This document shows positions 3,606-27,392 of a stretch of 64,000 nucleotides of DNA, in pieces; the stretch's first letter is position 1; each line of letters starts with the position of its first letter. The stretch lies in the IMG/VR virus record IMGVR_UViG_3300042402_007915, positions 1-64,000 of that record, one strand, 5' to 3'. Both the position numbers and the translations under genes were made by a program. Source of the stretch: a virus. Below the pieces are notes generated by a model, which was not told where the DNA came from, did not search any database, and saw only the letters and a list, made by a program, of their open reading frames with translations.

Positions 3606-3837
3606 TGAGACATCCCATTGAGATTAGTATTAGTGTTAGAAGTGGTAGGACCAATGCTGGGTTTGGTGTTGGTCCTTGAGGAATAGAAGTAGGCGCCGTT
3701 TTAAGTGGTGCTGTGGCTCGAACTGGCTTTGGGAATAGTTCTGCATCTGTTGGATGTGCCCAATCCCACAGAATCTGGCATGGGACATATACGGCGGTGA
3801 AAGCCGTTAGGGAGATGAGAACGATGAAGGCGTTCAC
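3571..3837 (-). CDS. small membrane protein
   Basis: Two hydrophobic segments separated by a Pro-rich linker. Confidence 0.55.
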   Translation of the reverse strand: MNAFIVLISLTAFTAVYVPCQILWDWAHPTDAELFPKPVRATAPLKTAPTSIPQGPTPNPALVLPLLTLILISMGCLIAMAGEFIVSL

Positions 3838-3888
3838 GAAAGAAGGCCCCTCTACCTCTTTTTTAGGGAGATAGAGGGGCAGCTCCCC

Positions 3889-4635
3889 TTAGAAGGGGAT
3901 TTCGTCGGCGTTGGCGTCGGGGGCCGTGACCTCTTCGTGCTTCGCCGTGCTGGTCTGGGTCGGCGCGGGGGTGCTCGTGGGGACACCGCCGAGCACGAAG
4001 GCGTCGAACGCCTTGGACCGGGCGTTGCGGAACGCCAGGCCCCGACGCGCCCCCTCAGGGGCCGCTTGCACGGTGTCGTCCAGCTCCAGGATCAGCGCCT
4101 CGCTCATGTTGAGGTCGGCCATGATGGTGGCCAAGCTCTCCATGTTGGCGGCCCCCATGATGCGGCTCTGGGGGGTGGCCTCCGTGGTGCCCGCGGTGCT
4201 GGCCTTGGGCCGCCGCTCGGACAGGACCTCGTCGAAGGCCTGGGCGATGACGACGGCGTTCGGGCCGTTGAGCCAGATGACGGTGTCGCCGAGCGAGCCG
4301 CGGCCCGTCGGGTTGACGCTGGTCTGGGCGTTGAGGGCCATGCCCACGACCTTGCGGGCGGGCTGGTTCTCCCGCGCCGGCTGGTCCCGCTGGACCGAGC
4401 CGAGGTTGAGCTTCTGCGTGAGGAGCCAGCAGAAGACGTTTGCGGCCCGCGCAGCGGCGGCCTTGGGGATGCCGTCGGCGCCGTAGCGGTAGCCGAGGAG
4501 GTCACCGCCGTTGCGGTTCTCGATTCGAGCGCCGAGCAACGACAGCAGCGTGGCAGGCTGCGGTCCCTCGACGGGGATGGTGGTGGCGCCAACTTCGCGG
4601 ATGGCGGTCACGGCTTCGGTCTTGGTGAGGCTCAT
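3889..4635 (-). CDS. putative ssDNA-binding or SSB-mimic protein
   Basis: 248 aa, GC-rich third codon positions, flexible tail ending ADEIPF (bacterial SSB C-terminus is DDIPF). Confidence 0.55.
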   Translation of the reverse strand: MSLTKTEAVTAIREVGATTIPVEGPQPATLLSLLGARIENRNGGDLLGYRYGADGIPKAAAARAANVFCWLLTQKLNLGSVQRDQPARENQPARKVVGMALNAQTSVNPTGRGSLGDTVIWLNGPNAVVIAQAFDEVLSERRPKASTAGTTEATPQSRIMGAANMESLATIMADLNMSEALILELDDTVQAAPEGARRGLAFRNARSKAFDAFVLGGVPTSTPAPTQTSTAKHEEVTAPDANADEIPF

Positions 4636-4721
4636 TTTCTTTGCCTTTGAGGGGGTTGCTGGCCCCTCGTTTTGAGGGCTGACCCCTCTCTTTTTTCTTT
4701 CGAAGGACTTATTCCTCCACG

Positions 4722-4742
4722 GAACTAACGCGCCGAAGGCGC
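4722..4742 (-). promoter_or_regulatory. GAAC-N4-stem-GAA-stem hairpin element (putative template-strand hairpin promoter)
   Basis: Plus strand GAAC TAAC GCGCC GAA GGCGC; one of about 18 copies upstream of leftward genes. Confidence 0.6.
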
Positions 4743-4785
4743 ACGAAACAAACCCCCTCCCACTTGCGTGAGAGGGGGTCGGGGA

Positions 4786-5061
4786 CTACTGCGCGGCTGC
4801 GGCAGCCGCCCCATCGGTGCGGCCCTTGCGACGGGCCCACTCGATGAAGGCGAGCTTGTAGGTGTCAATCGACGCCGAGCTGATGAGCCCGAGCGCCACG
4901 CCCAGCAACAGGACCGGCATCACGACATACATCGCGATTTCGATCATCCAATCGATGCCCCAGGCGTAGATGACGCCTGCGATCAGTCCCAGGCCAAGTG
5001 CGGCCTTGAGCGTTGCCAGAGTGCCCCCCGAGAGGGACACCTGCTCAGAGGGGCGCTCCAT
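4786..5061 (-). CDS. two-TM membrane protein
   Basis: 91 aa with two hydrophobic helices; start overlaps the upstream stop (TGATG). Confidence 0.7.
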   Translation of the reverse strand: MERPSEQVSLSGGTLATLKAALGLGLIAGVIYAWGIDWMIEIAMYVVMPVLLLGVALGLISSASIDTYKLAFIEWARRKGRTDGAAAAAAQ

Positions 5062-5873
5062 CAGGACGCCTGCGTGCTGGCGGCGCTGGCCGCAGCCTCG
5101 ATCTTGGCCTTGGCCGCGCGGGTGGAGATGGCCGCACCGAGGATGCTCCCCACCTGGACCCGCTCCGGGTTGTTCGAGCTGCGCACGTTGACGCCCAGGT
5201 CGCTGATGCGCGACCAGAACGCCAGGAGGTCATCGCCCGCCTTGCCGGTGGGCACGGCGTAGCTGCCGTCGGGTTGACGCATGAGCTCGGCGACCCCGGA
5301 GAGCCGGGGCTTGCCAAGCACCTCGATCGTGGGCATGAGCGCCCCGTTGCGGCCGGTGAGGGCCGTGTAGAGGGTGGCGCGGGCCTGGTAGATGGCGTCC
5401 CCGGCGGCCCGGACCACGGCGTTGTCGCCCCGGTACTTGACGGCCTTGCCGTCGGGGCCGGTGGGGAGCACCCCCTTCCGGATCGCCGAGATGAAGTTCA
5501 TGTTCTCCCGGTGCGGGCGGAAGTCCGCCCGGAGCTGCTGGATCTGCTCGATCAGCTTGGCCCGCTCGGTGTCGAGCTTGTCGAGCTCGCTCTGCAGGGT
5601 CTTCGCGACGGTCGCCTCGGCCTTGCTCGTGCCGAGCCCCTTCAGCTGCTGGTACTTCTCGTTCCGGCCCTCGTTGAGGGCGTCGATCTCCGCCTGCTTG
5701 GCGTCGATGACCGCTTTGGCCGCGTTCGCGGTCAGCTCGAGGTTCTTGAACGTCGGCTCCGCGGCCGAGGCCGCCTGCTCGACCACGCTGTCGTGGGCGG
5801 CGAGCGCGGTCAGGAGGGGGAGCATGATCCGGGTGAAGTTGACGTTCGGCTTGGGGGTGTTGGTCTTGGACAT
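5061..5873 (-). CDS. coiled-coil protein
   Basis: Start at ATG 5873 (MSKTNTPK); long heptad-like N-terminal half; GC-rich codons. Confidence 0.7.
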   Translation of the reverse strand: MSKTNTPKPNVNFTRIMLPLLTALAAHDSVVEQAASAAEPTFKNLELTANAAKAVIDAKQAEIDALNEGRNEKYQQLKGLGTSKAEATVAKTLQSELDKLDTERAKLIEQIQQLRADFRPHRENMNFISAIRKGVLPTGPDGKAVKYRGDNAVVRAAGDAIYQARATLYTALTGRNGALMPTIEVLGKPRLSGVAELMRQPDGSYAVPTGKAGDDLLAFWSRISDLGVNVRSSNNPERVQVGSILGAAISTRAAKAKIEAAASAASTQAS

Positions 5874-5940
5874 GGTGTAACCCGTGGGGGGCGCGAAGGC
5901 CCCGGTATTTTTTTTGCGCAATGAGGGACAACCCCTCACG

Positions 5941-5961
5941 GAACCAAAGCGCCGAAGGCGC
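5941..5961 (-). promoter_or_regulatory. GAA-triloop hairpin element
   Basis: GAAC CAAA GCGCC GAA GGCGC, same stem as the copy at 4722. Confidence 0.6.
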
Positions 5962-5990
5962 AGGCCAAGGCTGACGAAGTCAGCCTTGGC

Positions 5991-6434
5991 TTATCGAAGG
6001 AGGTAGACCGTGAGAGGTGAGTCTTGGAAGATTTTGATAATCTCTTGTTTGATTTCCCCGTAGTCTAATCCACCCAATCCGCAACCCATTGGTGGGATAG
6101 AGATTGAAGAGGCGAGCTTAAGTTGAAACGCCTTGTCACTTCGCTCTCTTAAGGTTTGAAGGGCTTTTACGACCCATTCTTTTTGGGACGGGTACTTCCA
6201 GTGCCGCTTTGTAGCGGCGTTGGCGATGTATCTTCCACAAACCGCATAGATGACTACGTCGCCAGGCTTATACTTCCCAGCCTTACAGTCTCGGCGATAG
6301 AGCTGGAACATATCTGGATAGTGTTCTTTGTAGAACTTAGCCAGTCCTGCGCCCATGACGCCAACACAGTTGACTGTGTTGACTTCGATGTCAGCACCTG
6401 TTTGGGTGATGTTGGCTACCTCGATGAATGGCAT
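5991..6434 (-). CDS. macrodomain ADP-ribosylhydrolase (DarG/Poa1p-like)
   Basis: VNTVNCVGVMGAGLA, TKRHWKYPS, IPPMGCGLGGLDY; GGAGG RBS before ATG 6434. Confidence 0.9.
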   Translation of the reverse strand: MPFIEVANITQTGADIEVNTVNCVGVMGAGLAKFYKEHYPDMFQLYRRDCKAGKYKPGDVVIYAVCGRYIANAATKRHWKYPSQKEWVVKALQTLRERSDKAFQLKLASSISIPPMGCGLGGLDYGEIKQEIIKIFQDSPLTVYLLR

Positions 6435-6499
6435 GCACACCTCCGCGGAAAACAAAGGGCGACGCCCTGTTGGCGTCGCCCGTACTGCTGAGGTTGAGC

Positions 6500-6727
6500 T
6501 TACTTCCGCATTCCCCAGCCAGAACCCGCTCCCTGTGCCGAGACGAGGAACCCCTTGGGGCGGCGAACGACGTTGGCCTGAATGGCTTTGCGTTGTTCGT
6601 CCTGTTGCGCGGCGTTCTGCGCCGCACAAACTTTCTGGAGCCTCCAGGAATCGTCTTTGCCGCCGTATTGCTCCTGGATAAGAGCGGCCCGTTCGTCGGG
6701 CGTGATCGGTTGGCGTTTGCGTGCCAT
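6500..6727 (-). CDS. hypothetical protein
   Basis: 75 aa, GAGG RBS, start overlaps the upstream stop (TAATG). Confidence 0.65.
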   Translation of the reverse strand: MARKRQPITPDERAALIQEQYGGKDDSWRLQKVCAAQNAAQQDEQRKAIQANVVRRPKGFLVSAQGAGSGWGMRK

Positions 6728-6903
6728 TAGAGCACCTCACACAAGTCTGCTGGCGAGTAGTCCAGCAGGATAAGGACAAGGAAGAGTGCTGCTACTCCCA
6801 GCACAATGAGGTTGGTGAAGGTGGGCTCTTTGATGACAGCCACGAGGCTGTACCAGAAGAACGCTGCCCACGCGAACAGGCCGGTAAGGAAGATGATGAG
6901 CAT
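6727..6903 (-). CDS. small two-TM membrane protein
   Basis: 58 aa MLIIFLTGLFAWAAFFWYSLV...; below the ORF-track cutoff. Confidence 0.6.
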   Translation of the reverse strand: MLIIFLTGLFAWAAFFWYSLVAVIKEPTFTNLIVLGVAALFLVLILLDYSPADLCEVL

Positions 6904-6919
6904 TGGCTGCTCTTCCTGT

Positions 6920-7429
6920 TCAAGGACAAACCTTGACGCTGGTGGTCTGGATGAGGGAAGTGAAGTTGACCTTTGGACAGGCCAGCTTGTACCACACCTC
7001 GTTGTTGATAGAGACGCGCATGGTCTCGCCGTCTACGGCGGCCATCAGCTTCTGGGCCTTGATGCCACTTTCAAGGAACATCTGGCGGCCATGCTCTGCT
7101 TGGTTGCAGAGCTTCTTTTCTTTGACGTTCTTGGTTTTGTGGTTTTCGGCGATCCTTTTGATCTCGAAGCATACGATGGTGCCGTTGACGGAAAGAATCG
7201 CGTCAACGTTTTGTTTTTCGGTGTTGTCCAGGTGCAGGGTCGCACCGACTCCCAACACCTTGATGGGCGAGAGGAACATCTCTTGGATTGCAAGCAATCC
7301 CCGTGCGATCAGTCCGGCTTCTTTGTCGGACGAGATGGCGGCGAGGAGCGCAGCCTCTTTGATGGACAGCCCCGAAACGGTAACGATCTGCTTGGGACTC
7401 TGCTGACGACCACCAATAACGATTTGCAT
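6920..7429 (-). CDS. possible PD-(D/E)XK nuclease-fold protein
   Basis: VDAIL...VCFEIKR...LCNQA pattern; GAGG RBS. Confidence 0.5.
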   Translation of the reverse strand: MQIVIGGRQQSPKQIVTVSGLSIKEAALLAAISSDKEAGLIARGLLAIQEMFLSPIKVLGVGATLHLDNTEKQNVDAILSVNGTIVCFEIKRIAENHKTKNVKEKKLCNQAEHGRQMFLESGIKAQKLMAAVDGETMRVSINNEVWYKLACPKVNFTSLIQTTSVKVCP

Positions 7430-7468
7430 AGTTATACCTCGAGGAATAGTAGAACTGCATGTTCTACC

Positions 7469-7489
7469 GAATAGAAGCCGCGAAGCGGC
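7469..7489 (-). promoter_or_regulatory. GAA-triloop hairpin element
   Basis: GAAT AGAA GCCGC GAA GCGGC; contains the very stable GCGAAGC DNA mini-hairpin. Confidence 0.6.
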
Positions 7490-7524
7490 GGGTAAACGAA
7501 AGGCCCCCTTTCGGGGGCCATGTG

Positions 7525-7747
7525 CTACCAGCTGAGCGTGTCGTACAGTTCGTCCGCGGCCTTTTTGCCCCAGCGACGGTACGCTGCGTCAATCAGCAGG
7601 AAGTTGTAGTCGTTCTTTTTGGTGGCCAGGCAGAACGAGACGATACGCTTGCTCGCTTGGAATCCAAGCCAGTCTTTGCGTAGCTGGCGGACCCACCACC
7701 GCCAGCAGTGGCCGGCGTACTTTTTCTTTTCTTTCCTACGGGCCATG
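7525..7747 (-). CDS. small basic hypothetical protein
   Basis: ATG 7747 (MARRKEKKK) with AAGG RBS. Confidence 0.6.
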
Positions 7748-7762
7748 ATACACCTTGTCTTG

Positions 7763-8029
7763 TTAGAAGGGAACGTCTTCGAGGCAGTTGGCTGCCATTG
7801 CTGCTTCAAGATCTGCTTGCCACTGACGCTCTGCATCAGTGATCATGAGCACCTTGGGCTTGCCGTCTTGGGTGCCCCAGCGGGCAGTCTTGGCCCAGAG
7901 GCACGCGAGTTCCAGGTCGGAGACTTCGGGGATGGTGGCGCCGCATTCGGGGCACTGCTCCCCTGCCGCGCCTTGTTCAAGGTAACCGCATTGGTGGCAG
8001 TACGGCATGTTGGGTCGTTGCAGTTCCAT
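7763..8029 (-). CDS. Zn-ribbon protein with SSB-like tail
   Basis: CHQC...CPEC; ends LEDVPF. Confidence 0.7.
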   Translation of the reverse strand: MELQRPNMPYCHQCGYLEQGAAGEQCPECGATIPEVSDLELACLWAKTARWGTQDGKPKVLMITDAERQWQADLEAAMAANCLEDVPF

Positions 8030-8232
8030 TATTCACCTCCGAGCAGGAGTTTGATTGCCAGCTTGATACGCTGGCTGAGGGTTTTGGGAGCGGCTTTCAC
8101 TTGCTGCCGCTTGAACTTGCTCATCGCAATGAGCCTTGCGGCTGTTTTGAGTAGAGCCGGTGACTGCTTTGCTTCGATCGGGTGGCGCGATCGAAGCACT
8201 TCCTCCCATAGCCGGGTTTCGATTTTGTACAT
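8029..8232 (-). CDS. hypothetical protein
   Basis: AGGAGG RBS, ATG 8232, just downstream of the hairpin element at 8246. Confidence 0.65.
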   Translation of the reverse strand: MYKIETRLWEEVLRSRHPIEAKQSPALLKTAARLIAMSKFKRQQVKAAPKTLSQRIKLAIKLLLGGE

Positions 8233-8352
8233 GCGACCTCCTGGCGAACCCACCCCCCCGAAGGGGGTGGGCTATTCCTCAGCCGCGCTTGTCTACGAGA
8301 TAGCGTGTCGTGGGGATCAGTTTGCCTTCTTTATTTTTACCTTGAGAGTAGG

Positions 8353-9033
8353 CTAAGGGTAGTTGATGAGGAATCGGTTCAGTTCCTCATAGGACATACG
8401 GTCAATACGCTGCTGTGCCTTAATATGCTGTTCCATACGCATCTGAGGCTTGATTGCAGGAGGCGCATAGTCTGCTGCGTTGGGCAGCAGCATCAGCTCC
8501 ATTGTTGGCTTTTTGGACTTGTCTGTCGATGGCTTTGTGTTTTGGGGGTTACCGTAACTTCCTCGTTGTGGGATGTAGTCCCACCCGCAGTGGATTCGCA
8601 CTCCCATGGCGTTTACTTTATATTGGGGAGCAGCAATGTTGATTCCGACATTTGCGCCACTTTGTTCAGTGACTTTCTCTCCGCGTGCTCCAATAGCTTG
8701 AAGATATTCGCGCCCCAATATGGCTTCGACTTTTTCTTCAGGCATCTTTTGGGTTTGGACCTTTCGGATGTCCCAGAGCTGGATGATATTTTGCCAGGCG
8801 AAGTAGCTTGTAAAGTGGCTTGGGCGTTGGCCATCCAGACAGATCAGCATGCGTTCTTTGTCGAATACGGGCCTAAGCAGACACCAGAATGGGATAGCTG
8901 ACATTTGAGAGTCTGTTACGACTCCCAGGACTTCTGAGTTTCCGTATCCTTTCCATTCTTTTTCGGTGTCTTGAATCTCTTGTAGTGAGATCGGGCTGAT
9001 AAGCCCGTTGTCGATTGCTGCTTGGAAGCTCAT
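8353..9033 (-). CDS. hypothetical protein
   Basis: ATGA overlap with the NADAR stop; 226 aa. Confidence 0.7.
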   Translation of the reverse strand: MSFQAAIDNGLISPISLQEIQDTEKEWKGYGNSEVLGVVTDSQMSAIPFWCLLRPVFDKERMLICLDGQRPSHFTSYFAWQNIIQLWDIRKVQTQKMPEEKVEAILGREYLQAIGARGEKVTEQSGANVGINIAAPQYKVNAMGVRIHCGWDYIPQRGSYGNPQNTKPSTDKSKKPTMELMLLPNAADYAPPAIKPQMRMEQHIKAQQRIDRMSYEELNRFLINYP

Positions 9034-9521
9034 CTGCTCTCCTCTTGGATCCACTTTTGGAACTTGGGGTTGCTTCTAATACTTTCCCAATGCTCTACGA
9101 TCCATTCGTAGCCAGCATGGACTGGTTTACCGCCGTATTGGTAATAGTGCGTGAGTGGGAGCGTAGATTCGGCGAATACTTTTGCCATTGCTGGGTGCTG
9201 GAATAGCTTCAGCTTCATGGCGTGTTTGAATAGTTCCAAGCAGGGTTCGTCAGTGATATGGCGAACACGGTCACTTGGGTTGGCCTTGAAGTAGTTCTTA
9301 GCATCCCAAGGGGTGCATCTTACGAGCTTTGGCTTTGCTTCGTCGGATGCTTGGAGCCAGAACCAATAGTTCTCCATACTGCGGAACTTTACTCCGTCGA
9401 TTTCGACGGGAATCTCTGCGAGGTTGGAGAGCCATCTACCCAGGGTGGTTTGGCCCTTGGTGTAGATGTTGATGTGTGTGGTACCGTCTTCTAACGGCAC
9501 CCACTTATATGGTTCTGGCAT
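9030..9521 (-). CDS. NADAR (YbiA-like) family protein
   Basis: HINIYTKG..LGRWLSN, FRSMENYW, AMKLKLFQHP...ESTLPLTHYY, typical of phage NADARs. Confidence 0.8.
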   Translation of the reverse strand: MPEPYKWVPLEDGTTHINIYTKGQTTLGRWLSNLAEIPVEIDGVKFRSMENYWFWLQASDEAKPKLVRCTPWDAKNYFKANPSDRVRHITDEPCLELFKHAMKLKLFQHPAMAKVFAESTLPLTHYYQYGGKPVHAGYEWIVEHWESIRSNPKFQKWIQEESR

Positions 9522-9805: not shown

Positions 9806-9814
9806 TCCGCCTCC

Positions 9815-10102: not shown

Positions 10103-10104
10103 GC

Positions 10105-10500: not shown

Positions 10501-10503
10501 ATC

Positions 10504-10722: not shown

Positions 10723-10789
10723 GACTTTCCTTCTGGTGAAACAGACCCCACCAACGATTGTTGATAGGGTCTTGGGTTCATTTGGCTGA

Positions 10790-11124: not shown

Positions 11125-11149
11125 TGCAGTTCTCTTTTGTGGAGGGTAA

Positions 11150-11421: not shown

Positions 11422-11561
11422 CCAAGGCCCGAAGGGCCAAAGGGTAAGGACACGGTCCCGGGGAGGGGCAGTAATGGGACAAACACGGACAGGCTGGCTT
11501 TAAGCCAGCCCTTGCGATTGGGTTTGACCTTGAGGAAGAAAGAAGGGCCGCGCTTCTTGCG

Positions 11562-12311
11562 CTACCAGTTAGAGTAGGTTGGCTCTTTTGGCGGGGTGAT
11601 TGGCTTGGTGGGTAGACTGTAGTCTTGCTTTACCCGCCTATACTCAGGCATACATTTTCTACTATTTTCTTTGAGAGTCGACATGAAGTTTTCGCCAGCC
11701 TGTTGGAGACTGACAATCGCAGCATGTGTCTCTGCAGATGGCGTTACTTCGATTGAATGATTGGGTCCGTATGCCCAAGTAATACATTCTTCGAGGGGCT
11801 GACAGAACGCAGCTCTCCAGTTTTGCAACACTTCGCAGGCTTTCCAGTATGTTGGGCCGTGAAAGAATCTTGCGGATAGCATTGCAGTTATTTGCTCTTT
11901 GCTTGGCAGAGCTACGCCGAAGCGTCCTTCATCGAAGATGCCTTCGGGGTAATACCACGGGTCATCATCGTACTCGACGACTGGAGACCTTCCTGGAAGC
12001 CCTGCGACGGCCTCATCAATCTTCTTTAGGAGTTCGTTCAGGATCAGGTCTTCTTCCGGATCTGCCCCGAGGGTGAGTTCGGGGTGCTCTTTTTGAAGCT
12101 TTTGTATTGCTTCAAGAGCTTTGTCATTGTTTTTCAATAAACGGAAGCCCTCTCCGAACATTACTTGTCCTGGACGGATTTCTCTCCAGTAGCGGTACTC
12201 GTCAAGTTCCGCTCTTGTCTGGTCTTTTTGTTGCTGTAGGATGACAAGCTGAGATTTTGGGTCCACTTGAACCTCTTGCGAGCCTTGAGTGAGAATAATA
12301 GAGGCCGCCAC
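11562..12311 (-). CDS. hypothetical protein
   Basis: 249-aa ORF downstream of the hairpin element at 12331. Confidence 0.7.
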   Translation of the reverse strand: MAASIILTQGSQEVQVDPKSQLVILQQQKDQTRAELDEYRYWREIRPGQVMFGEGFRLLKNNDKALEAIQKLQKEHPELTLGADPEEDLILNELLKKIDEAVAGLPGRSPVVEYDDDPWYYPEGIFDEGRFGVALPSKEQITAMLSARFFHGPTYWKACEVLQNWRAAFCQPLEECITWAYGPNHSIEVTPSAETHAAIVSLQQAGENFMSTLKENSRKCMPEYRRVKQDYSLPTKPITPPKEPTYSNW

Positions 12312-12432
12312 TTATGTGCATACCTCCACGGAACCCAACCCCTGAAGGGGGTCGCCACTACTTTTCCTTTCGAGGTCATTTATTAAGAAACAAAGCCCCG
12401 CTAATCCAATGAAGGATTAACGGGACTTGGGA

Positions 12433-13005: not shown

Positions 13006-13199
13006 TGGATGCTCCATAATGAGGGAGGTATTCCCTACTTGTGAACTGACCTCACGAAGTGTAGAACGGTGACCTTGAGGAAGGATTTGAGATGGCGCGG
13101 TTTGTGTGCGTGAAGGCGCGGCCACCCTATTATTCTCTCGAGGTACCTTGTCCTCCTCATACCTAAACCAAACACCTATTAATAAACTAATCCAATAGA

Positions 13200-13360: not shown

Positions 13361-14236
13361 TGGTCCTCTCCACAAACATATAATATTAACAACTAACCCC
13401 TCGCACACGTACTTCTCACTTATCTCTCACTACACTCTCACTTAGGTCTGAACATCTAACTCTCTCAAGGTATATGTGTTTGGTTACTATGTTTGGTTTA
13501 GTTTGAATATTTATACCCCTGGGGTCCGGGGGTTGAAGTACCTTGTTTGGTTGATAGGTAATCCGTTTTTTCTCGGGTTTAGAGTTTTGGTTGGTGTTGG
13601 GACCCTGGGGGTTAGTGTATTTATTGACCTTGAGACATAAAGAGGTGGCGCGAACCCTCTCACGACACCCGAATCCCAGTTCCTAAACCTCTCCAGGTTC
13701 ACATTTCAGTATCATTTCGGTGACAGATTTGTGACAGCACTGTCCGGAAGGACTGATTATTTTATTCTTTCTCTTATGCAAGAAACACTTATACCCCGCA
13801 GGTCTTATCTGCAGGGTCCGATTCCAGTTTTGCTGGTCCTAAGTATCTATCTCTACCCTTCACTAATGAGTTTCGTGCTGGTTCATCCCCTCTAAGGATC
13901 TCCAGTTCACCATACATGCATTGTAGGATTGGTGTCTGATAGTTTTGACAGTTAGGTTGGTATGAAAGATTTGGGTTATTGTGTATTCCAGTGCAGATGT
14001 TCTCCAACTCGGGAGTAGTCCGGGAGAGGAACCAATAACCGATCCGGGTTTGTTTATAGCATTGTCCTTGAGAGAAAGATAGATGGCGCGGCTCTTTCAT
14101 GACTATCCTATTTCCAAGAACAGGACTGCTTGTGCGGAGTAAGGCGGCCCCTTCTATTTCCACTCAAGGTAAACTCGCAAGAGAAACATAAGACCGCCAC
14201 CTGGTTTGGTGACGGTCTCTCAGTACAGGTTGATCT

Positions 14237-14722: not shown

Positions 14723-14736
14723 GAACACCTCCTTGG

Positions 14737-14801
14737 GAACTTAAGTCCCGAAGGGATTTGTTTGTTTATTTATTTACCTTGAGGAAGAATAGGGTGGCGC
14801 C
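14737..14801 (-). promoter_or_regulatory. composite element: GAA-triloop hairpin plus CCTTGAG-N12-GGCGCC box
   Basis: GAAC TTAA GTCCC GAA GGGAT, followed ~20 bp later by CCTTGAG GAAGAATAGGGT GGCGCC; the pairing recurs at 13043, 15389, 16370 and 18220. Confidence 0.6.
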
Positions 14802-15159
14802 CATTCGTCAGCCAGTCAAGCCGGCGGAGTCATACCCGCGTAAGGGCCGCCCCTCTATTTATCCCTCCAGGTAAACCCAGCCAGTCAAGCTCGGGCCAAA
14901 CCCCTCCAGTCAAACCCAGGAAGGGATGGGGCCGAAGCTGCACACAGGCCAGGCCACCACAGGCCTGGCCCGGAGCCGACCGAACTGAGTGGTAACTCAG
15001 GGAACGCACCAACCCGAAGGGTTAGGTTGAAGTAGGCCTGGTCTGGGGATTGTAACCCAGGAACGCACAGGGCCTTGAGATAAGGGTGGGGTGACTATTT
15101 ATCGGGAACTAAACTCCCCCGGCTTCTATGCAACGAAGCGTGCCACCCTATTTATTTAC

Positions 15160-15392: not shown

Positions 15393-15500
15393 ACAAACCC
15401 CGAAGGGGAAACAGGCCCTTGAGGAAGGAATAGTTGGCGCCGCTTAGAGTGAGTATTTATAAGAGAAACAAAGCCCCGCCACATGGGGCGGGGCGTAGGC

Positions 15501-16277: not shown

Positions 16278-16488
16278 GTTGACTCCCGGTCGGTCTTACC
16301 AGCCGTGCGAATGTGGCACTACACTCCAGTACAACACTGGGATGTAGTTGGTCCGGTAAGACTCTCCATGAACCTACACTCCGAAGGAGAAACATTTGCC
16401 CTTGAGAGATGATTGGGGATTAGAGGTGGCGCCGACTTGTTGAGTGAGTATTTATTGAGGAAACAAAGGCCCGCCGAAGCGGGCCAGG

Positions 16489-16713: not shown

Positions 16714-17093
16714 CCTTGCACCTCCGAGGAATAGAACTCCCGAAGGGCATATTTATTGGGGGAAACAAAGGCCCGCCGAAGCGGGCCGGGCTACGGGAGG
16801 AACAGGGCCACCTCGAAGAGGGCGCGCCACCTATTTTCCCTCAAGGGCACAACGATTATTTATCAAGAAGAAACAAGAGCCCCTCCAATCCATTTAAGGA
16901 CAGAGGGACTCTCATAAAGACAGAGGGCCACAAGCCCTCCATCCCCGTTTACGACTGCTCCAAGGTTACCCTTGTGAGTCGAGCGATTCACGCTCACCCA
17001 TGCAGTACGGCTCTGCATGGGATTAGGAGATTGAGGAGGCCCAGTCGCCTGGGCTCCCTCCTCCGTCACCGAACCAAACCCCCCGAAGGGGGA

Positions 17094-17279: not shown

Positions 17280-17427
17280 GGTCACCTCCAAAGAAACCTT
17301 CAGAACTTAATCCTGAAGGGAGCGCGGAGTGCTGATAATGGCGGCCACCTCTTTATTCTCCTCAAGGGCCCATTATTTATAACAAGAAACAAACCCCGCC
17401 CACCAATGAAGGTGAACGGGGCTGGGA

Positions 17428-18162: not shown

Positions 18163-18830
18163 AATAACCTCCACAGGACTTGCAGAGCCTGGTCTATCCA
18201 GGATGCAGTCCCTATCAATGAATCCACATCACGAAGTGTACAACATTAGTAGTGTTGTATAGTTTGGCCCTTGAGAGAATGAATGGCCGCGAGCTTCGTG
18301 TGAGCGGAGTTGGTTTGGAGTGGGGATTTGGGTGGCATCAACAAAGCGGCGGCTATCCTATTTCTCTCAAGGTAACAAAGAAGAGAAGACCCCTCTAACA
18401 TTTAAGTCAGAGGAGTCATGGTGAATACGCTTAAAGGGGAACCACCCCTACCAAACTAATCCCCTAAGCGCTGGGGAAGAAAGGAGATGAACTAACATAG
18501 CCTGGCCGCACCAAAGAGGGTACTAACATGACTTATCAACCACCAAGCACCAGGCCATGAAAGTCCAATCCCAACGAACAGAAACCCCCGAAGGGGAACA
18601 AAGGAAAGAACCTTGAGTGGGAAAGGGGAAGGATACCCACCTCAAAGCCAAACCCATCAACCCAAACAAGCCACAACGTCCAAGCGGAGTGCGCGTGGCA
18701 CACTGGGTCTGCCCTTGACTCGGAGTCCGGCGGAGTAACAAGAAATTAAAATAAAAAGGGGCCCCATTTCTGGAGCCCCTCCCAGGCAGTTAAGCCCGGC
18801 ACCCCCTACGCATTGTAGAGGGTGTTCGAA

Positions 18831-23000: not shown

Positions 23001-23069
23001 GTGACTCCTTTGTCTGGGAAGCGAAGGGTTGGGGAATATCGACGTTATTGTCATACCCCGCGTGACTCG

Positions 23070-23090: not shown

Positions 23091-23168
23091 GTTGGGAACA
23101 CGAATCCATAAAAAAGAAAAAGAAAAAAGAAGGCTGGAAATGTTCCAGCCCCCTTTTGAGTCAGTTAG

Positions 23169-23924
23169 CTACCAAGTAAACTTGGAGCCAAGAGCAGGAC
23201 GCACCTCAGTGAGGTACCGCTCACGAAGAGCCGCCAAGATTTCCTCGTCTTTCTCGAGGTAAACCGCAGGTCCTTCGCCCATAACATAGACCTCAACATA
23301 AGGACAGAACTTCTTGTCCGGCGTCCCTTGACGAGCAAACGTCCGGAACACAAGCCTGTTCATCATGATGAGGCCCAAAGCAAACACCCAGCGTTCGGCT
23401 GAATTCTGGCGGCCAGTATAACGCATAAAGCGTTGGCCATCCTTGTTCATCCAAAGCTGAATGTTCAGAATCTCTCCGTGGTACACAAACTGGGTCTTAA
23501 CGAACCCAACAGTGTCCTGGAGAAGAAATTGGCTCAAAGCATTACGCCAGATGGCAATAAGCTTGGCCATTTCGCCAAACGGAGCCTTGCGAGACTCAGA
23601 CTTGGCATAGGCGATAAACGCACTAGCCCACATCTGGTACTCGTTAGCAGTGCCCCGAGCGGCAGTGAGTCCCCGAAGCTGAGCTTCGGATTGAGCGGCG
23701 TCAAGAAGCGCTTTGTTAGCAACTTCCGAAGCCGAGTTAACTTGGTCAATCAGGGCGACTCGCTCACGAGCGACATGCTCGAGGCAGCCCTTAATCTGCG
23801 GCTTGGTTTGCCGCATGAACGTGCCGAGGGGAACCTCAGCACCAAGTACCGGCAGAGTCTTGCCGGAATAGTTGGGCTTTGCAAGCCCGTTGGAACCCAC
23901 AGTGGGCTCCTTGCTCTTGGTCAT
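23169..23924 (-). CDS. hypothetical protein adjacent to the polymerase
   Basis: 251 aa, AAGGAG RBS. Confidence 0.75.
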   Translation of the reverse strand: MTKSKEPTVGSNGLAKPNYSGKTLPVLGAEVPLGTFMRQTKPQIKGCLEHVARERVALIDQVNSASEVANKALLDAAQSEAQLRGLTAARGTANEYQMWASAFIAYAKSESRKAPFGEMAKLIAIWRNALSQFLLQDTVGFVKTQFVYHGEILNIQLWMNKDGQRFMRYTGRQNSAERWVFALGLIMMNRLVFRTFARQGTPDKKFCPYVEVYVMGEGPAVYLEKDEEILAALRERYLTEVRPALGSKFTW

Positions 23925-24082
23925 AATACTCCTTCGACCTAAGAGTGATATGGGGTAGAGTCAAACGGCCGATTCCGTCATACCCAATCCCACAAAGAAG
24001 ATAAAGAAATAAAAAGTAAAAGAAATAAAAGGGCCCGAAGGCCCTCCTGTTTTGTTAACCCAGACAGGAAACTGGGCCCCTG

Positions 24083-24211
24083 TCAGCTGGCGAACTGGAC
24101 CAGAGCGGTCCAGAACCAGCCCGACAGGGGAATCCACGGGGCCTTGATGGCCCCGTGGAAAACCACGAGACCAGCAAGGACGACCGTGGCGCCCTCGAGA
24201 TAGTTCTTCAT
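24083..24211 (-). CDS. small membrane peptide
   Basis: AGGAGG RBS, 42 aa, hydrophobic. Confidence 0.6.
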   Translation of the reverse strand: MKNYLEGATVVLAGLVVFHGAIKAPWIPLSGWFWTALVQFAS

Positions 24212-24354
24212 AGTCCCTCCTAAGGACATTGAAGAGTTGTAATTTATCGTACCACTGGATTGTGATACGAAACCCATAGAAACAAAAAGGGGCCCGTTAG
24301 GGCCCCTAGCTAGTATTTACCACGCGCCCTAGCTAGGCGCAGAATACGACGTGC

Positions 24355-24579
24355 CTAGAACGGCATCTCGTCGTATTCTTTCCCCTCTTCGGGAGCGGAA
24401 AGGGCGGGGACATAGCCCGCCCAAGGATCCGGGCGGCGCTCGGCCGCCAGGAGGTGAAAGAGAACGAGCTTCTCCTGGGCCAAAGCCCAGGAGAGGTCGC
24501 TGTGAGTGCGGCAGGTGTGGCATTCACCACACCCGACCGCACAGCCGCGGAAACGGTTGTCAATAACTTGCACCTTCAT
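24355..24579 (-). CDS. small Cys-rich protein with SSB-like tail
   Basis: AAGGAGG RBS; CAVGCGECHTC; ends YDEMPF. Confidence 0.7.
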   Translation of the reverse strand: MKVQVIDNRFRGCAVGCGECHTCRTHSDLSWALAQEKLVLFHLLAAERRPDPWAGYVPALSAPEEGKEYDEMPF

Positions 24580-24610
24580 AGTTCCTCCTTAGGAACTAGG
24601 GCTTAATTGC

Positions 24611-24692
24611 CCATGAGAAAGAAAAAGGCCGCCCTTCCTAAGAGGGCGGCCTGTGACCATGCTTTTTTGTTAACTCGGAAAGCCAACCGAGC
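24611..24692. repeat. ~85-bp double-hairpin intergenic repeat, copy 1
   Basis: Similar copies at 25182-25261 and 27878-27958. Confidence 0.75.
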
Positions 24693-24697
24693 GAGAC

Positions 24698-25090
24698 TCA
24701 GAGAGTCTCGATCTCCTCCTCCCGGAGACGATACATCTCCGCGACGCGCCGCCGGGCCGTCTCCCAGTTTTTATCTTCTGCGCAAATCTCGGCCGTGCGA
24801 CCTTGATATGAGAACCTAAACCAGTAAAACCTGTAGATGGTGGGCCAGCCGGGCCCGCTGACCCATCTCACCGGGTCGCAGTCACCGCCCGCCTCGGAGA
24901 AGCCGTCGAGGTCGTCGGGGTCATCGCACATATCATGGTTAAGAAAGACGTCTTCGTCGTCCCCATGACAGTCCTTGGCGGCGGGGGCGGCGGTGGTGAT
25001 CATGCCGAGGTAGGCCTCGAGCTCGACCCAGCCGTCGCCGCCGAGGTCGAAGTCGAAGTCGAAGCGGTTGCCGCGGTTGGTGCTGGACAT
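24698..25090 (-). CDS. acidic hypothetical protein
   Basis: GGAGG RBS before MSSTNRG; Asp-rich. Confidence 0.65.
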   Translation of the reverse strand: MSSTNRGNRFDFDFDLGGDGWVELEAYLGMITTAAPAAKDCHGDDEDVFLNHDMCDDPDDLDGFSEAGGDCDPVRWVSGPGWPTIYRFYWFRFSYQGRTAEICAEDKNWETARRRVAEMYRLREEEIETL

Positions 25091-25181
25091 GTTGTCCTCC
25101 ATGGTACAATACCTAATACCTCATAAGCCCATCATACTAAATTGTATGACTGCCTCCTTTTGGCTTCAATAGATACGAGTA

Positions 25182-25261
25182 CCATAGAAAGAAAAAGGTC
25201 GCCCCTCCTAAGGGGGCGACCTATGACCATGCGTTTTTGACGCCCGGAACGCTAACCGGGG
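25182..25261. repeat. double-hairpin intergenic repeat, copy 2
   Basis: CCATAGAAAGAAAAAGG-stem-TCCTAAG-stem-GACCATGC. Confidence 0.75.
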
Positions 25262-25265
25262 GCCA

Positions 25266-25625
25266 CTACTTGGTAGTGGCCAGGGCAACCCAGGAGGGCG
25301 TGCCGATCGTCAGGGCGGTGAGGCCCAGGACGCCGGCGAAGGTCGCCGGCACCAAAGCCGTGAGGCCCAGCAAAGACACCGCCGCCACAAGGACGGCGGC
25401 AGCGGCCATACGGGGGGCGATGAACTTCCGCACCGCTCGCGCGGTGCGGGCCACGGGGCGCCGAGGGGCGCGAATGACGCGACCCTCGGCAAGAGGCGAG
25501 ATGGAGGCCGCGACCCAAGCCGCCTCCATCGGGTTCGGGGCCGGGAGGGAGGCCGCCGCCTCAACGGCGACCTCCAGGGCGACGGGGAACTCCGCCGCAA
25601 CAAAAGACATCTGGATATGGTTCAT
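25266..25625 (-). CDS. membrane protein
   Basis: GGAGG RBS; two C-terminal TM segments. Confidence 0.7.
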   Translation of the reverse strand: MNHIQMSFVAAEFPVALEVAVEAAASLPAPNPMEAAWVAASISPLAEGRVIRAPRRPVARTARAVRKFIAPRMAAAAVLVAAVSLLGLTALVPATFAGVLGLTALTIGTPSWVALATTK

Positions 25626-26350
25626 ACGAACCTCCAGCGGGTATTTCTACCCGAATAGTTGGGGAATCGCTCCCCCGGGGCCATAACACGCTCTGGCAGG
25701 CGCCAACCTCTTAATTATACTCCCAGAGATTGGTGTAGGAGTTTGGTGTCAAGGCTTCTAAGTACCTTGACGGGATAACCTCAGTTATCCACTTGGTCTG
25801 TCGGGAGTTTAGTGTCCGTGTGTGGTTTGACCAGTAACACACACAGACATCGGTTGCGTGAGCATAGGCTGCTCCTTTCGGGCCTGTAGGAGAGTGGGTT
25901 AGTTTTAAGTGCGGCCACTATTCCTCCCCTAAGAGAATAGCTTTCACACTAATGGGTTAAGCCCATTACTCTGTCCCTCTAGGTCTCTTTAGACTCTATA
26001 CCTTGAGGGGATAAGAAGAGGCGCGGCTATTACGTAAGCCGCTCCTGGGATGATCCAGGACGCAATCCTTTTCACTCCACTGTGAGTGTTGGACCCAATT
26101 CCTATCTCTAGGTATTGGATTGGATTGATTCCCGCCAGACACGAACGCCGGCCATTAGTCCTGGCCCCGAAGGGCTTAGGATGCTTTGAGTCAATTGCTC
26201 ATAGAAATAAAAAGGATGAAAGAAAAAGGACCGCGTCTTTCGACACGGTCCTATTCCAAACTACAAGCGAGCCTAAACTCCCTTGCAGTTGTCCTCTACA
26301 CGGCTGTTAATCCCGGTAGAGCGCCCGATGAGCGGGTCTTTAGCCCCCCC

Positions 26351-27004
26351 TTACTTCAGGGGGAGCTTTTGGGTGAGGGGGCGGGGCGGCAGGGGCCGGG
26401 GGGCCGGGGTGGGGCGCGCCTCGAGGGCGCGCCCGTAGGCCTTGCCCTTCTGGTACTGGGCCTGGGCGATCGCGGCCCGCAGGCCTTCCTGCGTGGCCTT
26501 GTACTCCCAGCCCGGCATCAGCCGGGCGGCGGCCCGCAGCAGGGTGACCTGGCGGTCGGTGACCGAGATCTTGGCCGCCGTCCAGGCGGCGAGGGCCGCC
26601 TCGGCCTTGGCCAGCGAGGCGGTGTCGGAGGCCGCCTTCTCCCGGGCCTCCTTCTGCTTGAGGGCCTCCTCGGCAAGAGCCTGGAGGCCCTCGCCGCTCG
26701 CCGCCGCCTTGGCCAGCTTCCGGTTGCGCTCGGCCTCCTGGGCGAGCGCCTTGGAGGCGGCGCGGGCCGCCTCCGTCTCGGCCAGGAGGGCCTGGACGGC
26801 GACGCCCTCCTCCATCCCCTCGCTCAAGAGGAGGAGGGCCTTGGCCTCCTCCTCCTCCTTGCGGGAGAGCGGGGCGGCCTTGGCCGCCTCCGCCGCCTTC
26901 TGGGAGGCGACCTTGGCGGCCTCCTCGGCCTTGGCCGCCAAGGCGGCCTTGAGGGCGGTCAGGGCGGCGGTGGCGGCGGGGGCGACAGTGCTGTTGGTGG
27001 ACAT
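26351..27004 (-). CDS. Ala/Glu/Lys-rich coiled-coil protein
   Basis: GGAGAG RBS, ATG 27004; very GC-rich codons. Confidence 0.75.
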   Translation of the reverse strand: MSTNSTVAPAATAALTALKAALAAKAEEAAKVASQKAAEAAKAAPLSRKEEEEAKALLLLSEGMEEGVAVQALLAETEAARAASKALAQEAERNRKLAKAAASGEGLQALAEEALKQKEAREKAASDTASLAKAEAALAAWTAAKISVTDRQVTLLRAAARLMPGWEYKATQEGLRAAIAQAQYQKGKAYGRALEARPTPAPRPLPPRPLTQKLPLK

Positions 27005-27392
27005 GGTTGTCTCTCCAGGTCTTGTGCCTACACCCTCAAGCTCTATATTGTACGACATGTACAAGTGAGCTCTATTGGTATGCAGGCCTTAAGACCATAG
27101 AAATAAAAAGGGGCATGCCCTAGTGCGTCAAATAGTTCTCCGGTCAAACGACTAAGCTAAATAGAATGAAAAAAAAGGATCGCGCCCAAGCTTTGTTAGA
27201 GCTGTTCTGGGGAGAACTCGCTAGTCAGTTGTGTTTACCTTGAGGGATAAACTTAGCTGGCGTCATTGAGATCGACCCCAAAGCTCACATTAAGCTTGGG
27301 CAATCTGCTCGGTCGGTAAGACCATAAAAGAAAAAGGGCCCGATGAGCGGGTCCCTACCTTTGTTTAACGTCTTTAGGTTAGACGTCCCGGG

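What the first reader, a model, noticed from the sequence alone, without database searches (positions are those of the whole stretch)
3674..27264. Bipartite CCTTGAG-(purine-rich spacer)-GGC(G/C)(C/G) box, about 20 copies in both orientations, often in inverted pairs
Forward copies: 3674, 11528, 12283, 13073, 13628, 14066, 14777, 15417, 16400, 18269, 26001, 27238. Reverse copies: about 12352, 13117, 14144, 14845, 16823, 17341, 18347, 25911. The spacer is usually 11-14 nt. Pairs such as 13073/13117, 14066/14144, 14777/14845 and 18269/18347 are inverted around 15-60 bp. Many boxes sit about 10-30 bp upstream of a triloop hairpin. It does not fit sigma70 or sigma54 consensus. Options: binding sites for a phage activator, divergent phage promoters (read as GCC..CTATTYY..CTCAAGG), RNase III-like stems, or recombination sites that shuffle single-gene cassettes.
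Basis: seen in the sequence. Interest (0 to 1): 0.7.

Follow-up and report, generated by a model that had tools for sequence, protein, structure and literature searches.

The report
Bipartite promoter-like box of phage
A 25-base two-part DNA signal repeated about 20 times between the early genes of an uncultured 147-kb phage is real. It is most likely the start signal read by the phage's own unusual RNA polymerase, with weaker copies hidden inside the late genes and a distant relative using the same design with a different last word.

Summary
A strict pattern gives 14 hits in 3.0-28.5 kb against 0.13 in shuffles.

Read in gene sense, the box is GGCGCC(ACC), then 9-14 pyrimidine-rich bases (often CTATTC), then CTCAAGG(G/T).

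- **Setting.** It lies between the early genes downstream of a 1389-aa ORF, which I show by fold to be a single-chain two-barrel RNA polymerase (QDE-1 / Thermus phage gp64 type).
- **Partition.** The micro-genes upstream of that ORF use a different, strictly sense motif: hairpin-TTTTTCTTTCTATGG.
- **Relative.** A relative whose polymerase is 32% identical keeps the architecture and the GGCGCCACC half. Its distal word is CTAAGGGC/TACGGGC, close to the mapped P23-45 gp64 promoter core TCTAGGGGC.
- **New here.** 25 sense and 7 antisense weaker copies sit inside late genes, against 0.7-1.6 expected after codon or synonymous shuffling. CTCAAGG is also the most over-represented 7-mer of the whole genome.

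Best reading (about 0.45): a bipartite promoter of the phage polymerase.

Against it: 15 of 54 copies are antisense, the spacing varies, some early units lack a box, and there are no 5'-end data. RNase III stems and site-specific recombination are poorly supported. Cassette exchange is real nearby.

The parts
3674..3697 (-). forward (gene-sense) box; 90 nt before ATG 3584
11528..11551 (-). forward box at the head of a structured ORF-free leader and the tightly packed gene run that follows down to about 3.9 kb
12283..12309 (-). forward box, 17 nt before GTG 12266; paired with 12351-12375
12351..12375 (+). degenerate reverse box (GTCGCC..TTCGAGG), 16 nt after terminator 12428-12393
13073..13098 (-). 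forward box, 68 nt before ATG 13005; paired with 13115-13143
13115..13143 (+). reverse box (CTCGAGG variant) facing the ORF-free iteron tract
13628..13651 (-). forward box before ORF-free tract
14066..14089 (-). forward box, paired with 14144-14169
14144..14169 (+). reverse box, 20 nt after terminator 14219-14190
14777..14801 (-). forward box, 55 nt before ATG 14722, followed by ATAAATA and a CCCTTCGGG hairpin
14845..14871 (+). reverse box (CTCCAGG variant) facing an ORF-free tract
15417..15441 (-). single forward box between terminator 15494-15473 and hairpin 15398
16400..16433 (-). single forward box (21-nt spacer), 123 nt before ATG 16277
16821..16846 (+). single reverse box after hairpin + ATAAATA
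17341..17367 (+). single reverse box, 24 nt after terminator 17423-17392
18269..18290 (-). forward box, 107 nt before ATG 18162; paired with 18349-18372
18349..18372 (+). reverse box, 15 nt after terminator 18417-18388
18611..18643 (-). degenerate forward box (weak GC half) before hairpin 18604-18585
25911..25935 (+). degenerate reverse copy whose distal word is of the relative's type (CCCTAAG)
26001..26024 (-). forward box in the pre-early region; identical in relative L003
27238..27263 (-). forward box (GGCGT half) in the pre-early region; identical in L003
18831..23000 (-). 1389-aa single-chain two-barrel RNA polymerase (non-virion type), the presumed reader of the box
23100..28840 (-). pre-early region with the other motif (hairpin-TTTTTCTTTCTATGG, sense only), including the copy just upstream of the polymerase gene
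32840..32867 (+). intragenic sense box-like site in a late gene
33335..33356 (+). intragenic sense box-like site
36806..36830 (+). intragenic sense box-like site (in terminase gene)
39428..39452 (+). intragenic sense box-like site (GGCGCC-12-CTCGAGG)
40463..40488 (+). intragenic sense box-like site
47103..47135 (+). intragenic sense box-like site (weak)
54538..54559 (+). intragenic sense box-like site (weak)
55217..55244 (+). intragenic sense box-like site
56588..56608 (+). intragenic sense box-like site (weak)
31663..31690 (-). intragenic antisense copy with a good match (CCTTGAG-15-GGCGCC)
40121..40148 (-). intragenic antisense copy with a good match

Best explanation
The box is a bipartite promoter of a phage-encoded, sigma-independent RNA polymerase, probably the non-virion two-barrel enzyme encoded at 18831-23000. 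It is read in the direction GGCGCC(ACC), pyrimidine tract, CTCAAGG(G/T).

By analogy with Thermus phage P23-45, the distal word would be the core element, lying about 10-18 nt upstream of the start site. The palindromic GGCGCC, about 12 nt further up, would be a second contact, made either by a second domain or by a helper protein. The RNA would then begin about 10 nt past CTCAAGG, near the small UUCG hairpin that precedes most early genes.

The proposed order of events is as follows. The injected virion polymerase reads the other motif (hairpin-TTTTTCTTTCTATGG) in 23-29 kb and so makes the non-virion polymerase. That enzyme then fires from the boxes in front of the early units at 3.6-18.7 kb, and from weaker copies embedded in frame in the late genes.

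Shown here: the motif, its statistics, its positions, the polymerase fold and the conservation of the design in a relative. Inferred: which enzyme binds, the start site, and any function of the antisense copies.
For: 1. **Real and intergenic.** 14 hits against 0.13 expected.
2. **All genes in 1-29.5 kb are on the minus strand**. Forward boxes lie 17, 55, 68, 90, 107 and 123 nt before start codons, or head ORF-free units. They sit between a strong terminator and the next leader.
3. **Orientation.** 39 of 54 copies are co-directional with the genes (binomial p 0.0015).
4. **Polymerase confirmed.** For ORF 18831-23000, the AF2 model of residues 230-690 has pLDDT 90.8. Foldseek matches QDE-1 at 6e-11, P74-26 gp62 at 2e-9, phage gp64 RNAP (8f72) at 1.2e-8 and P23-45 gp96 at 9e-5. 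MQGDDDGD is invariant.
5. **Partition as in P23-45** (PMC10770324). A T-rich, sense-only motif abuts the terminators upstream of the polymerase gene, and the GC-containing box lies downstream. Relative G001 has the same layout.
6. **Conserved design in a relative.** With only 32% polymerase identity, G001 keeps GGCGCCACC, the pyrimidine tract, both orientations and the back-to-back pairs. Its distal word is CTAAGGGC, TACGGGC or TCTATAGGC, which is 8/9 or 9/9 identical to the mapped gp64 promoter cores TCTAGGGGC and TCTATAGGC.
7. **Selection at the DNA level inside late genes.** 25 sense sites against 0.7 (codon shuffle) and 1.6 (synonymous shuffle). CTCAAGG ranks first of 630 permutations. G001 late genes carry 4 sense and 0 antisense sites of its own type and none of ours.
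8. **No competing reader found.** Sigma-70-type promoters are not enriched and no phage sigma is encoded.
Against: - There are no transcript 5' ends or binding data.
- 15 of 54 copies are antisense. Antisense copies are themselves enriched (8 against 0.9 in the early region, 7 against about 1 in the late region). In the early region they would fire into the 3' end of the gene upstream.
- The distance between the two halves varies from 9 to 21 nt (8 to 15 in the relative), which is loose for a single rigid enzyme-DNA interface.
- Several early units have no box: those before ATG 16713, 17279, 7429, 5939 and 4635.
- A strictly sense-oriented ATAAATA module next to many boxes is an alternative promoter candidate.
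- None of the 25 late sites is within 190 nt of the next start codon (random expectation 8%).
- The bare heptamer is over-represented on both strands all over the genome. A promoter core alone does not explain that, and P23-45 does not show it.
- P23-45 gp64 promoters have no GGCGCC element.
- Our distal word matches TCTAGGGGC only with a 1-nt indel.
Confidence: 0.45

Rival explanations
1. Operator or activator site. A phage DNA-binding protein, dimeric on the GGCGCC palindrome with a second contact at CTCAAGG, binds the boxes and controls neighbouring promoters. Those promoters would be the sense-only terminator-TTTGTTTC-ATAAATA modules or the hairpins. The protein might also mark phage DNA more widely.
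For: - The core is palindromic, both orientations occur, back-to-back pairs sometimes share one GGCGCC/GGCGCGCC centre, and the spacer is variable.
- ATAAATA is strictly sense-oriented (11:0 here, 8:1 in G001) and abuts boxes of either orientation.
- Early units without a box exist.
- The heptamer is enriched genome-wide on both strands.
Against: - No candidate binding protein was identified. Early proteins have no Pfam hits.
- Boxes at 13073 and 14777 precede genes with no ATAAATA/TTTGTTTC module upstream.
- A sense bias of 25:7 inside late genes is not expected of an operator.
- The distal word resembles a mapped polymerase promoter core.
Confidence: 0.22
2. Genome-wide 'self' word. CTCAAGG is a short signal selected all over the phage DNA, in the manner of Chi or DNA-uptake sequences. 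It would be read by a nuclease, recombination, replication or packaging factor. The early bipartite boxes would be high-affinity versions of it.
For: - CTCAAGG is the top over-represented 7-mer: 136 against 40 (order-2 Markov, z 15) and against 94.6 (maximal order).
- It is in excess over synonymous shuffles on both strands in all coding blocks, in the cheapest reading frames.
- In G001 the top words are its own distal half.
- Inverted pairs next to terminators recall Neisseria DUS (from my own knowledge).
Against: - It does not explain the GGCGCC half, the pyrimidine tract, the restriction of bipartite copies to early and late blocks (none in sense in 96-147 kb), or the link to gene starts.
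- No reader protein is known.
- No N6 methyltransferase, integrase or resolvase is encoded.
Confidence: 0.12
3. RNA-level element. Inverted pairs fold into long stems in read-through transcripts and are cut by RNase III, or protect RNA ends. Single sense copies would act as leader or processing signals.
For: - Pairs can fold: -19 to -41 kcal/mol for the natural elements.
- Late copies are sense-biased.
- The position between cistrons is like that of T7 RNase III sites (from my own knowledge).
Against: - Arms of a pair are not more complementary than arms of different pairs: -22.1 against -24.7 kcal/mol on the + strand RNA, -22.2 against -23.7 on the gene-sense RNA.
- About half of the boxes are single.
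- Strong terminators lie upstream of the pairs.
- Antisense copies are enriched too, and the palindromic GGCGCC points to recognition of duplex DNA.
Confidence: 0.07
4. Recombination sites as the primary function. The boxes are crossover points that move single-gene cassettes.
For: - Genes with foreign composition (GC3 0.8-0.98) are flanked by inverted boxes.
- A 792-nt block is 97% identical to phages whose polymerase is 32-39% identical, with its left end about 35 nt from a box in both genomes.
- There are gene-sized replacements relative to L003.
- PeSL cassettes of T4-like phages are a precedent (PMC2839356, PMC4122927).
Against: - The documented breakpoints lie mostly at class A modules and at Shine-Dalgarno/ATG sites, not inside boxes.
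- No recombinase of the known families is encoded.
- In-frame copies inside essential late genes make no sense as cassette junctions.
- No close relative covers 3.6-18.7 kb, so breakpoints there could not be tested.
- Recombination at repeated promoters is a likely by-product rather than the function.
Confidence: 0.07

Closest known systems
GC-rich promoters of the non-virion two-barrel RNA polymerase gp64 of Thermus phage P23-45 (Chaban et al. 2024, PMC10770324)
   Same:
- The motif contains GC and lies in front of early genes downstream of the polymerase gene.
- The core word YCTAnnGGC is shared with the relative G001 (TCTATAGGC is identical), and our CTCAAGGGC is close to it.
- The genome layout is the same: divergent pre-early/early and structural arms.
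   Different: - P23-45 has only a 9-bp core, seven mapped copies, all in sense, and no GGCGCC upstream half.
- Its word is not enriched genome-wide.
- Here the box is bipartite, occurs in both orientations and in back-to-back pairs, and is embedded in late genes.
- The polymerases share a fold but no detectable sequence similarity.
AT-rich promoter/terminator modules of the P23-45 virion polymerase gp96 (TTTATTCCTTTA abutting a conserved terminator)
   Same: - The tract on the non-template strand is pyrimidine-rich. The box spacer CTATTCYTT resembles TTATTCCTT.
- Promoters sit directly after terminators.
   Different: In this phage the closer counterpart of that class is the separate motif hairpin-TTTTTCTTTCTATGG at 23-29 kb, not the box.
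PeSL (promoter-early stem-loop) cassettes of T4-like phages (PMC2839356, PMC4122927)
   Same: - Repeated composite terminator/promoter modules flank small, variable early genes.
- Gene-sized swaps occur between related phages at such modules.
   Different: - PeSLs carry host sigma-70 early promoters and occur in one orientation.
- Here the motif is phage-specific, fits no sigma-70 consensus, occurs in both orientations, and breakpoints at the box itself are not shown.
Promoters of T7-type and N4 virion polymerases
   Same: - They are phage-specific, sigma-independent signals repeated along the genome, some inside genes.
- N4 uses triloop hairpins, and GAA-triloop hairpins accompany the boxes here.
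   Different: - T7 promoters are contiguous, at a fixed distance from the start and in sense only.
- The box is not itself a hairpin, and no T7-like polymerase was found (that control was silent, so this is inconclusive).
Over-represented polar words (Chi, Haemophilus/Neisseria DNA uptake sequences)
   Same: A short asymmetric word at about one per kb on both strands, embedded in the cheapest reading frames, with inverted pairs next to terminators.
   Different: - Those are cellular signals with known readers.
- Here the word is phage-lineage-specific and tied to a GC palindrome in regulatory positions.

Membership tests
P23-45-type promoter of a non-virion two-barrel RNA polymerase | The genome encodes a gp64-like single-chain two-barrel RNA polymerase | tested here: met
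   AF2 model pLDDT 90.8. Foldseek: QDE-1 6e-11, P74-26 gp62 2e-9, phage gp64 RNAP (8f72) 1.2e-8.
P23-45-type promoter of a non-virion two-barrel RNA polymerase | Conserved core TCTAGGGGC-like word about 10 nt upstream of the start site | tested here: inconclusive
   The relative's distal half CTAAGGGC/TCTATAGGC matches 8-9 of 9. This phage's CTCAAGGGC matches only with a 1-nt indel. The start site is unknown.
P23-45-type promoter of a non-virion two-barrel RNA polymerase | Mapped transcription start and polymerase occupancy (cappable-seq, ChIP-seq) | not testable with these tools
   The phage is uncultured and no transcript data are available.
P23-45-type promoter of a non-virion two-barrel RNA polymerase | Copies co-directional with the genes they precede | tested here: inconclusive
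   39 of 54 are in sense (p 0.0015), but 15 antisense copies are themselves enriched.
Sigma-70 promoter | TTGACA, 16-18 nt, TATAAT | tested here: not met
   6 sites against 6.9 and 6.4 expected, none at the boxes.
RNase III processing stems (T7 type) | The two arms of each site are kept complementary to each other | tested here: not met
   Arms of a pair -22.1 against arms of different pairs -24.7 kcal/mol. Half of the boxes are single.
PeSL-like mobile regulatory cassette | Indel and replacement breakpoints between relatives fall at the repeated module | tested here: inconclusive
   One breakpoint lies about 35 nt from a box in two genomes. Other breakpoints lie at class A modules. No close relative covers 3.6-18.7 kb.
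Site-specific recombination site (att/dif/attC-like) | A cognate tyrosine or serine recombinase and a short fixed central region between inverted arms | tested here: not met
   PF00589 and PF00239 are absent from the genome. Arms are separated by 16-55 nt here.
N4-type hairpin promoter | A 5-7 bp stem with 3-nt loop hairpin as the recognised element, and a T7-like virion polymerase | tested here: inconclusive
   GAA-triloop hairpins are strand-specific and frequent (19 against 4) but lie at a variable 8-30 nt from the box. The PF00940 search was negative, but its control was silent.
Methyltransferase / R-M target word | A cognate methyltransferase; the word is usually avoided, not enriched, in phage DNA | tested here: not met
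   CCTTGAG is an m6A motif in Bradyrhizobium (PMC4840208). No N6 methyltransferase family is found in this genome, and the word is enriched.

The most novel reading that the evidence does not exclude
The phage has written the recognition word of its own polymerase, or of a partner protein, across its whole genome. Strong bipartite copies sit in both orientations around each early cassette. Weaker in-frame copies run through the late genes. The bare heptamer is the most over-represented word on both strands.

Related lineages use the same grammar with a different word (CTCAAGG against TA[AC]GGGC). That would make it a lineage-specific 'self' transcription code. It would plug horizontally acquired cassettes into phage-controlled expression, and its back-to-back antisense copies might insulate or silence units.
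Probability: 0.2. Interest if true: 0.8.

Novelty: new variant of a known kind. Interest (0 to 1): 0.62.

Why it matters
Promoters of sigma-independent two-barrel phage polymerases have been mapped in very few systems. As far as I found, P23-45 in 2024 is the only single-chain case.

This locus offers a second, richer promoter grammar, with an upstream palindrome, a pyrimidine tract and a core word. It also offers a natural specificity swap in a relative, so polymerase-promoter co-evolution could be tested directly in vitro with two enzymes and two words.

The polymerase belongs to a family of at least 134 sequence clusters in metagenomes. The rule may therefore help to annotate transcription units in many uncultured phages.

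The in-frame embedding of the signal in late genes, and the genome-wide excess of the heptamer, are unexplained. They would be of interest for how phages keep their own DNA transcriptionally distinct from the host's.

Tried and rejected
- **Start-codon / Shine-Dalgarno reading.** I read CCTTGAGGAAG..(A/G/T)TGGCGCC as ribosome-binding site plus start codon. Rejected: no ORFs follow (for example a stop after 5 codons at 16400) and all genes are on the other strand.
- **Chance or codon usage for the late copies.** Rejected by codon, synonymous and permutation controls.
- **Known RNA families or tRNAs in 1-30 kb.** None reached a gathering score.
- **Cultured relatives.** No DNA or protein match in 50,697 phage records. 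Single-protein scans of IMG/VR found nothing. A box-pattern scan of IMG/VR gave 0 hits. Genome contigs gave none.
- **Sequence-level link of the polymerase to PDB, Pfam or gp64.** None. The first fold, with 5 sequences, failed at pLDDT 42. The first profile job failed on length.
- **Methylation idea.** CCTTGAG is an m6A motif in Bradyrhizobium, but no methyltransferase is encoded.
- **Phylogenetic footprinting with L003.** The box regions are nearly identical between the two genomes, so it was uninformative.

Full report
**1. Setting**

The window is the first 64 kb of a single-contig, 147,225-bp tailed-phage genome, with terminase and portal at 35-43 kb. Coding-strand statistics (Shine-Dalgarno, GC3) put all genes of 1-29.5 kb on the minus strand. 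The structural genes of 29.7-96 kb are on the plus strand, and 96-147 kb is minus again.

**2.

- CCTTGAG occurs 56 times against 13.2 expected.
- All twelve forward copies, and four of the eight reverse copies, match CCTTGAG, then 9-15 purine-rich bases, then GGCGC / GGCCGC / GGCGT. The other four reverse copies are degenerate (TTCGAGG, CTCGAGG, CTCCAGG, CTTAGGG).
- A strict pattern gives 14 hits in 3.0-28.5 kb against 0.13 in dinucleotide shuffles.
- Read on the gene-sense strand, the consensus is GGCGCC(ACC), then a pyrimidine tract (often CTATTC), then CTCAAGG(G/T).

**3. Anatomy of the early intergenic regions**

On the coding strand a typical gap reads, in order:
1. the stop codon of the upstream gene;
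2. a strong hairpin with tail TTTGTTTCT, often followed by ATAAATA;
3. optionally a reverse box (CCTTGAG>GGC);
4. 16-55 nt of spacer;
5. a forward box (GGC>CTCAAGG);
6. 8-30 nt;
7. a small hairpin with a UUCG-type loop;
8. the Shine-Dalgarno sequence and ATG.

Further counts:
- Terminator-like sites are enriched (59 against 22). Sigma-70-like sites are not (6 against 6.9).
- Forward boxes lie 17-123 nt before six start codons, or head ORF-free structured units.
- Five of the seven reverse boxes in 12-18.5 kb are back to back with a forward box, and four follow a terminator by 15-24 nt.
- ATAAATA is strictly sense-oriented (11:0). GAA-loop mini-hairpins are strand-specific (19:4).
- Some early units have no box at all.

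**4. Who could read it**

The 1389-aa ORF at 18831-23000 has no Pfam, PHROG, PDB-sequence or cultured-phage match. An exhaustive profile-free search found 134 clusters of homologues. With their alignment, residues 230-690 fold with pLDDT 90.8.

Foldseek places the model with QDE-1 (6e-11), P74-26 gp62 (2e-9), a phage gp64 RNA polymerase (8f72, 1.2e-8), plant RDR2, P23-45 gp96 and the crAss-like virion polymerase. The MQGDDDGD motif is invariant. It is therefore a single-chain two-barrel RNA polymerase of the non-virion type. Earlier notes of this scan report a second, tail-associated polymerase at 61270 onward, which I did not re-test.

**5. Comparison with P23-45 (PMC10770324)**

In P23-45 the virion enzyme reads the AT-rich TTTATTCCTTTA, which abuts terminators in the pre-early genes. 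The non-virion gp64 reads a GC-rich core TCTAGGGGC about 10 nt before the start.

Here the 23.1-28.9 kb region upstream of the polymerase gene carries about 14 copies of hairpin-TTTTTCTTTCTATGG(G/T). All are in sense, including one just before the polymerase gene. The boxes lie almost entirely downstream of that gene.

**6. A distant relative keeps the design**

IMG/VR contig G001 (loci L002, L009, L010; polymerase 32% identical) has the mirror layout:
- TTCTATGG modules upstream of its polymerase;
- downstream, boxes GGCGC(C/G)ACC, pyrimidine tract, then CTAAGGGC / TACGGGC / TAACGGC / TCTATAGGC;
- boxes in both orientations, and back-to-back pairs that may share one GGCGCC or GGCGCGCC centre;
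- boxes directly after terminator-TTGTTTCTT-AATAAATA, followed by a UUCG hairpin, Shine-Dalgarno and ATG.

The proximal half is thus conserved. The distal half has changed and is close to the mapped gp64 core.

**7.

*(a) Box-like sites inside the late genes.*
- The late block (29.7-96 kb) holds 25 sense and 7 antisense intragenic sites of the form GC core, pyrimidine spacer, CTC[A/G/C]AGG. Expected numbers are 0.5 (dinucleotide shuffle), 0.7 (codon shuffle) and 1.6 (synonymous shuffle).
- CTCAAGG ranks first of the 630 permutations of its letters, and first of all 7-mers in that context.
- 21 of the 25 put CTC|NAG|G in codon frame 0, the cheapest way to encode it.
- The 96-147 kb block has none in sense.
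- G001 late genes carry 4 sense and 0 antisense sites of its own type and none of ours.

*(b) The bare heptamer.*
- CTCAAGG is the most over-represented 7-mer of the genome: 136 against 40 (order-2 Markov) and against 94.6 (maximal order).
- It exceeds synonymous-shuffle expectation on both strands in every coding block.
- In G001 the top words are TACGGGC and TAAGGGC.
- P23-45 shows nothing similar.

**8. Tests of the rival readings**

- **Hairpin / RNase III.** Arms of a pair are not more complementary than arms of different pairs.
- **Recombination.** No integrase or resolvase is encoded. Mosaicism, however, is real. Relative L003 (polymerase 97% identical) differs by gene-sized replacements between class A modules. 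A 792-nt block (25084-25874) is 97% identical in L005 and L008, whose polymerase is 32-39% identical. Its left end lies about 35 nt after a box in both genomes, and its right end at the next gene's Shine-Dalgarno/ATG. This resembles the PeSL cassettes of T4-like phages (PMC2839356, PMC4122927). I read it as a by-product of repeated regulatory modules.
- **Methylation.** CCTTGAG is an m6A motif in Bradyrhizobium, but no N6 methyltransferase is encoded.

**9. Verdict**

The box is a real, selected element specific to this phage lineage. The best-supported mechanism is a bipartite promoter for the phage's own two-barrel polymerase, read GGC>CTCAAGG (confidence about 0.45). An operator or activator site next to sense-only AT-rich promoters is the main rival (about 0.22).

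Still unexplained: the enriched antisense copies, the loose spacing, the late sites that keep away from gene starts, and the genome-wide heptamer excess. Other windows of this scan have reported phage promoter cassettes of the PeSL kind on other DNA, but not this motif.

Noticed in passing
window 23100-28840 (minus strand): About 14 micro-genes are each followed by a hairpin plus TTTTTCTTTCTATGG(G/T). The motif is sense only and occurs nowhere else in the genome. The same motif lies upstream of the polymerase gene in relative G001. It is a candidate promoter class for the virion polymerase.
   Followed up: partly
window 25084-25874; L005:3894-4680; L008:1-284: A 792-nt block (gene 25266-25625, its terminator/promoter module and the next gene's leader) is 97% identical in phages whose polymerase is only 32-39% identical. 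This indicates recent cassette transfer.
   Followed up: yes
window 23168-28729 compared with L003: A 97%-related phage differs by gene-sized replacements (28497-28729, 27958-28111, 27436-27609, 24341-25077) and by a 785-nt insertion next to the polymerase gene. The ends of these differences lie at regulatory modules.
   Followed up: partly
whole genome (G000): CTCAAGG/CCTTGAG is the most over-represented 7-mer (136 copies). Inside genes it sits mostly as CTC|AAG|G or C|CTT|GAG, 2-4 times above the synonymous-shuffle expectation on both strands. This is unexplained.
   Followed up: partly
window 13190-13370, 14812-14910: ORF-free tracts carry the iteron-like repeat ACTGCAATGGGATAA (x5) and CCAGTCAAGC (x3), bounded by boxes. 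They are a possible origin or non-coding RNA units.
   Followed up: no
window 28950-29115: At the point where the minus and plus gene blocks diverge there are three direct repeats of GAAATATATTTTCGGGAG(G/A)TACCT about 50 nt apart, and GGGGTAGGTTG repeats.
   Followed up: no
window 3889-4635, 5061-5939, 12433-13005, 14237-14722, 15501-16277, 17428-18162, 24698-25090, 26351-27004, 28529-28732: These early genes have GC3 of 0.8-0.98 in a genome of about 50% GC, and none has a Pfam match. They look like recently acquired cassettes.
   Followed up: partly
window 7429-7519, 4635-4780, 16713-16790: In early units without a box, a pyrimidine tract plus CTCGAGG / CTCAAAGG / CTCGGAGG lies 11-12 nt before the ATG and merges with the Shine-Dalgarno sequence.
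   Followed up: no
window 18831-23000: The polymerase family has 134 cluster representatives in metagenomes, mostly 950-1100 aa. This protein carries about 400 extra C-terminal residues with conserved Cys/His.
   Followed up: partly
window 3600-18800: GAA-loop mini-hairpins (for example CCCGAAGGG) number 19 on the + strand against 4 TTC-loop ones. In gene-sense RNA they read as UUCG-type loops 20-100 nt before most early start codons, including that of the polymerase gene (23079).
   Followed up: partly
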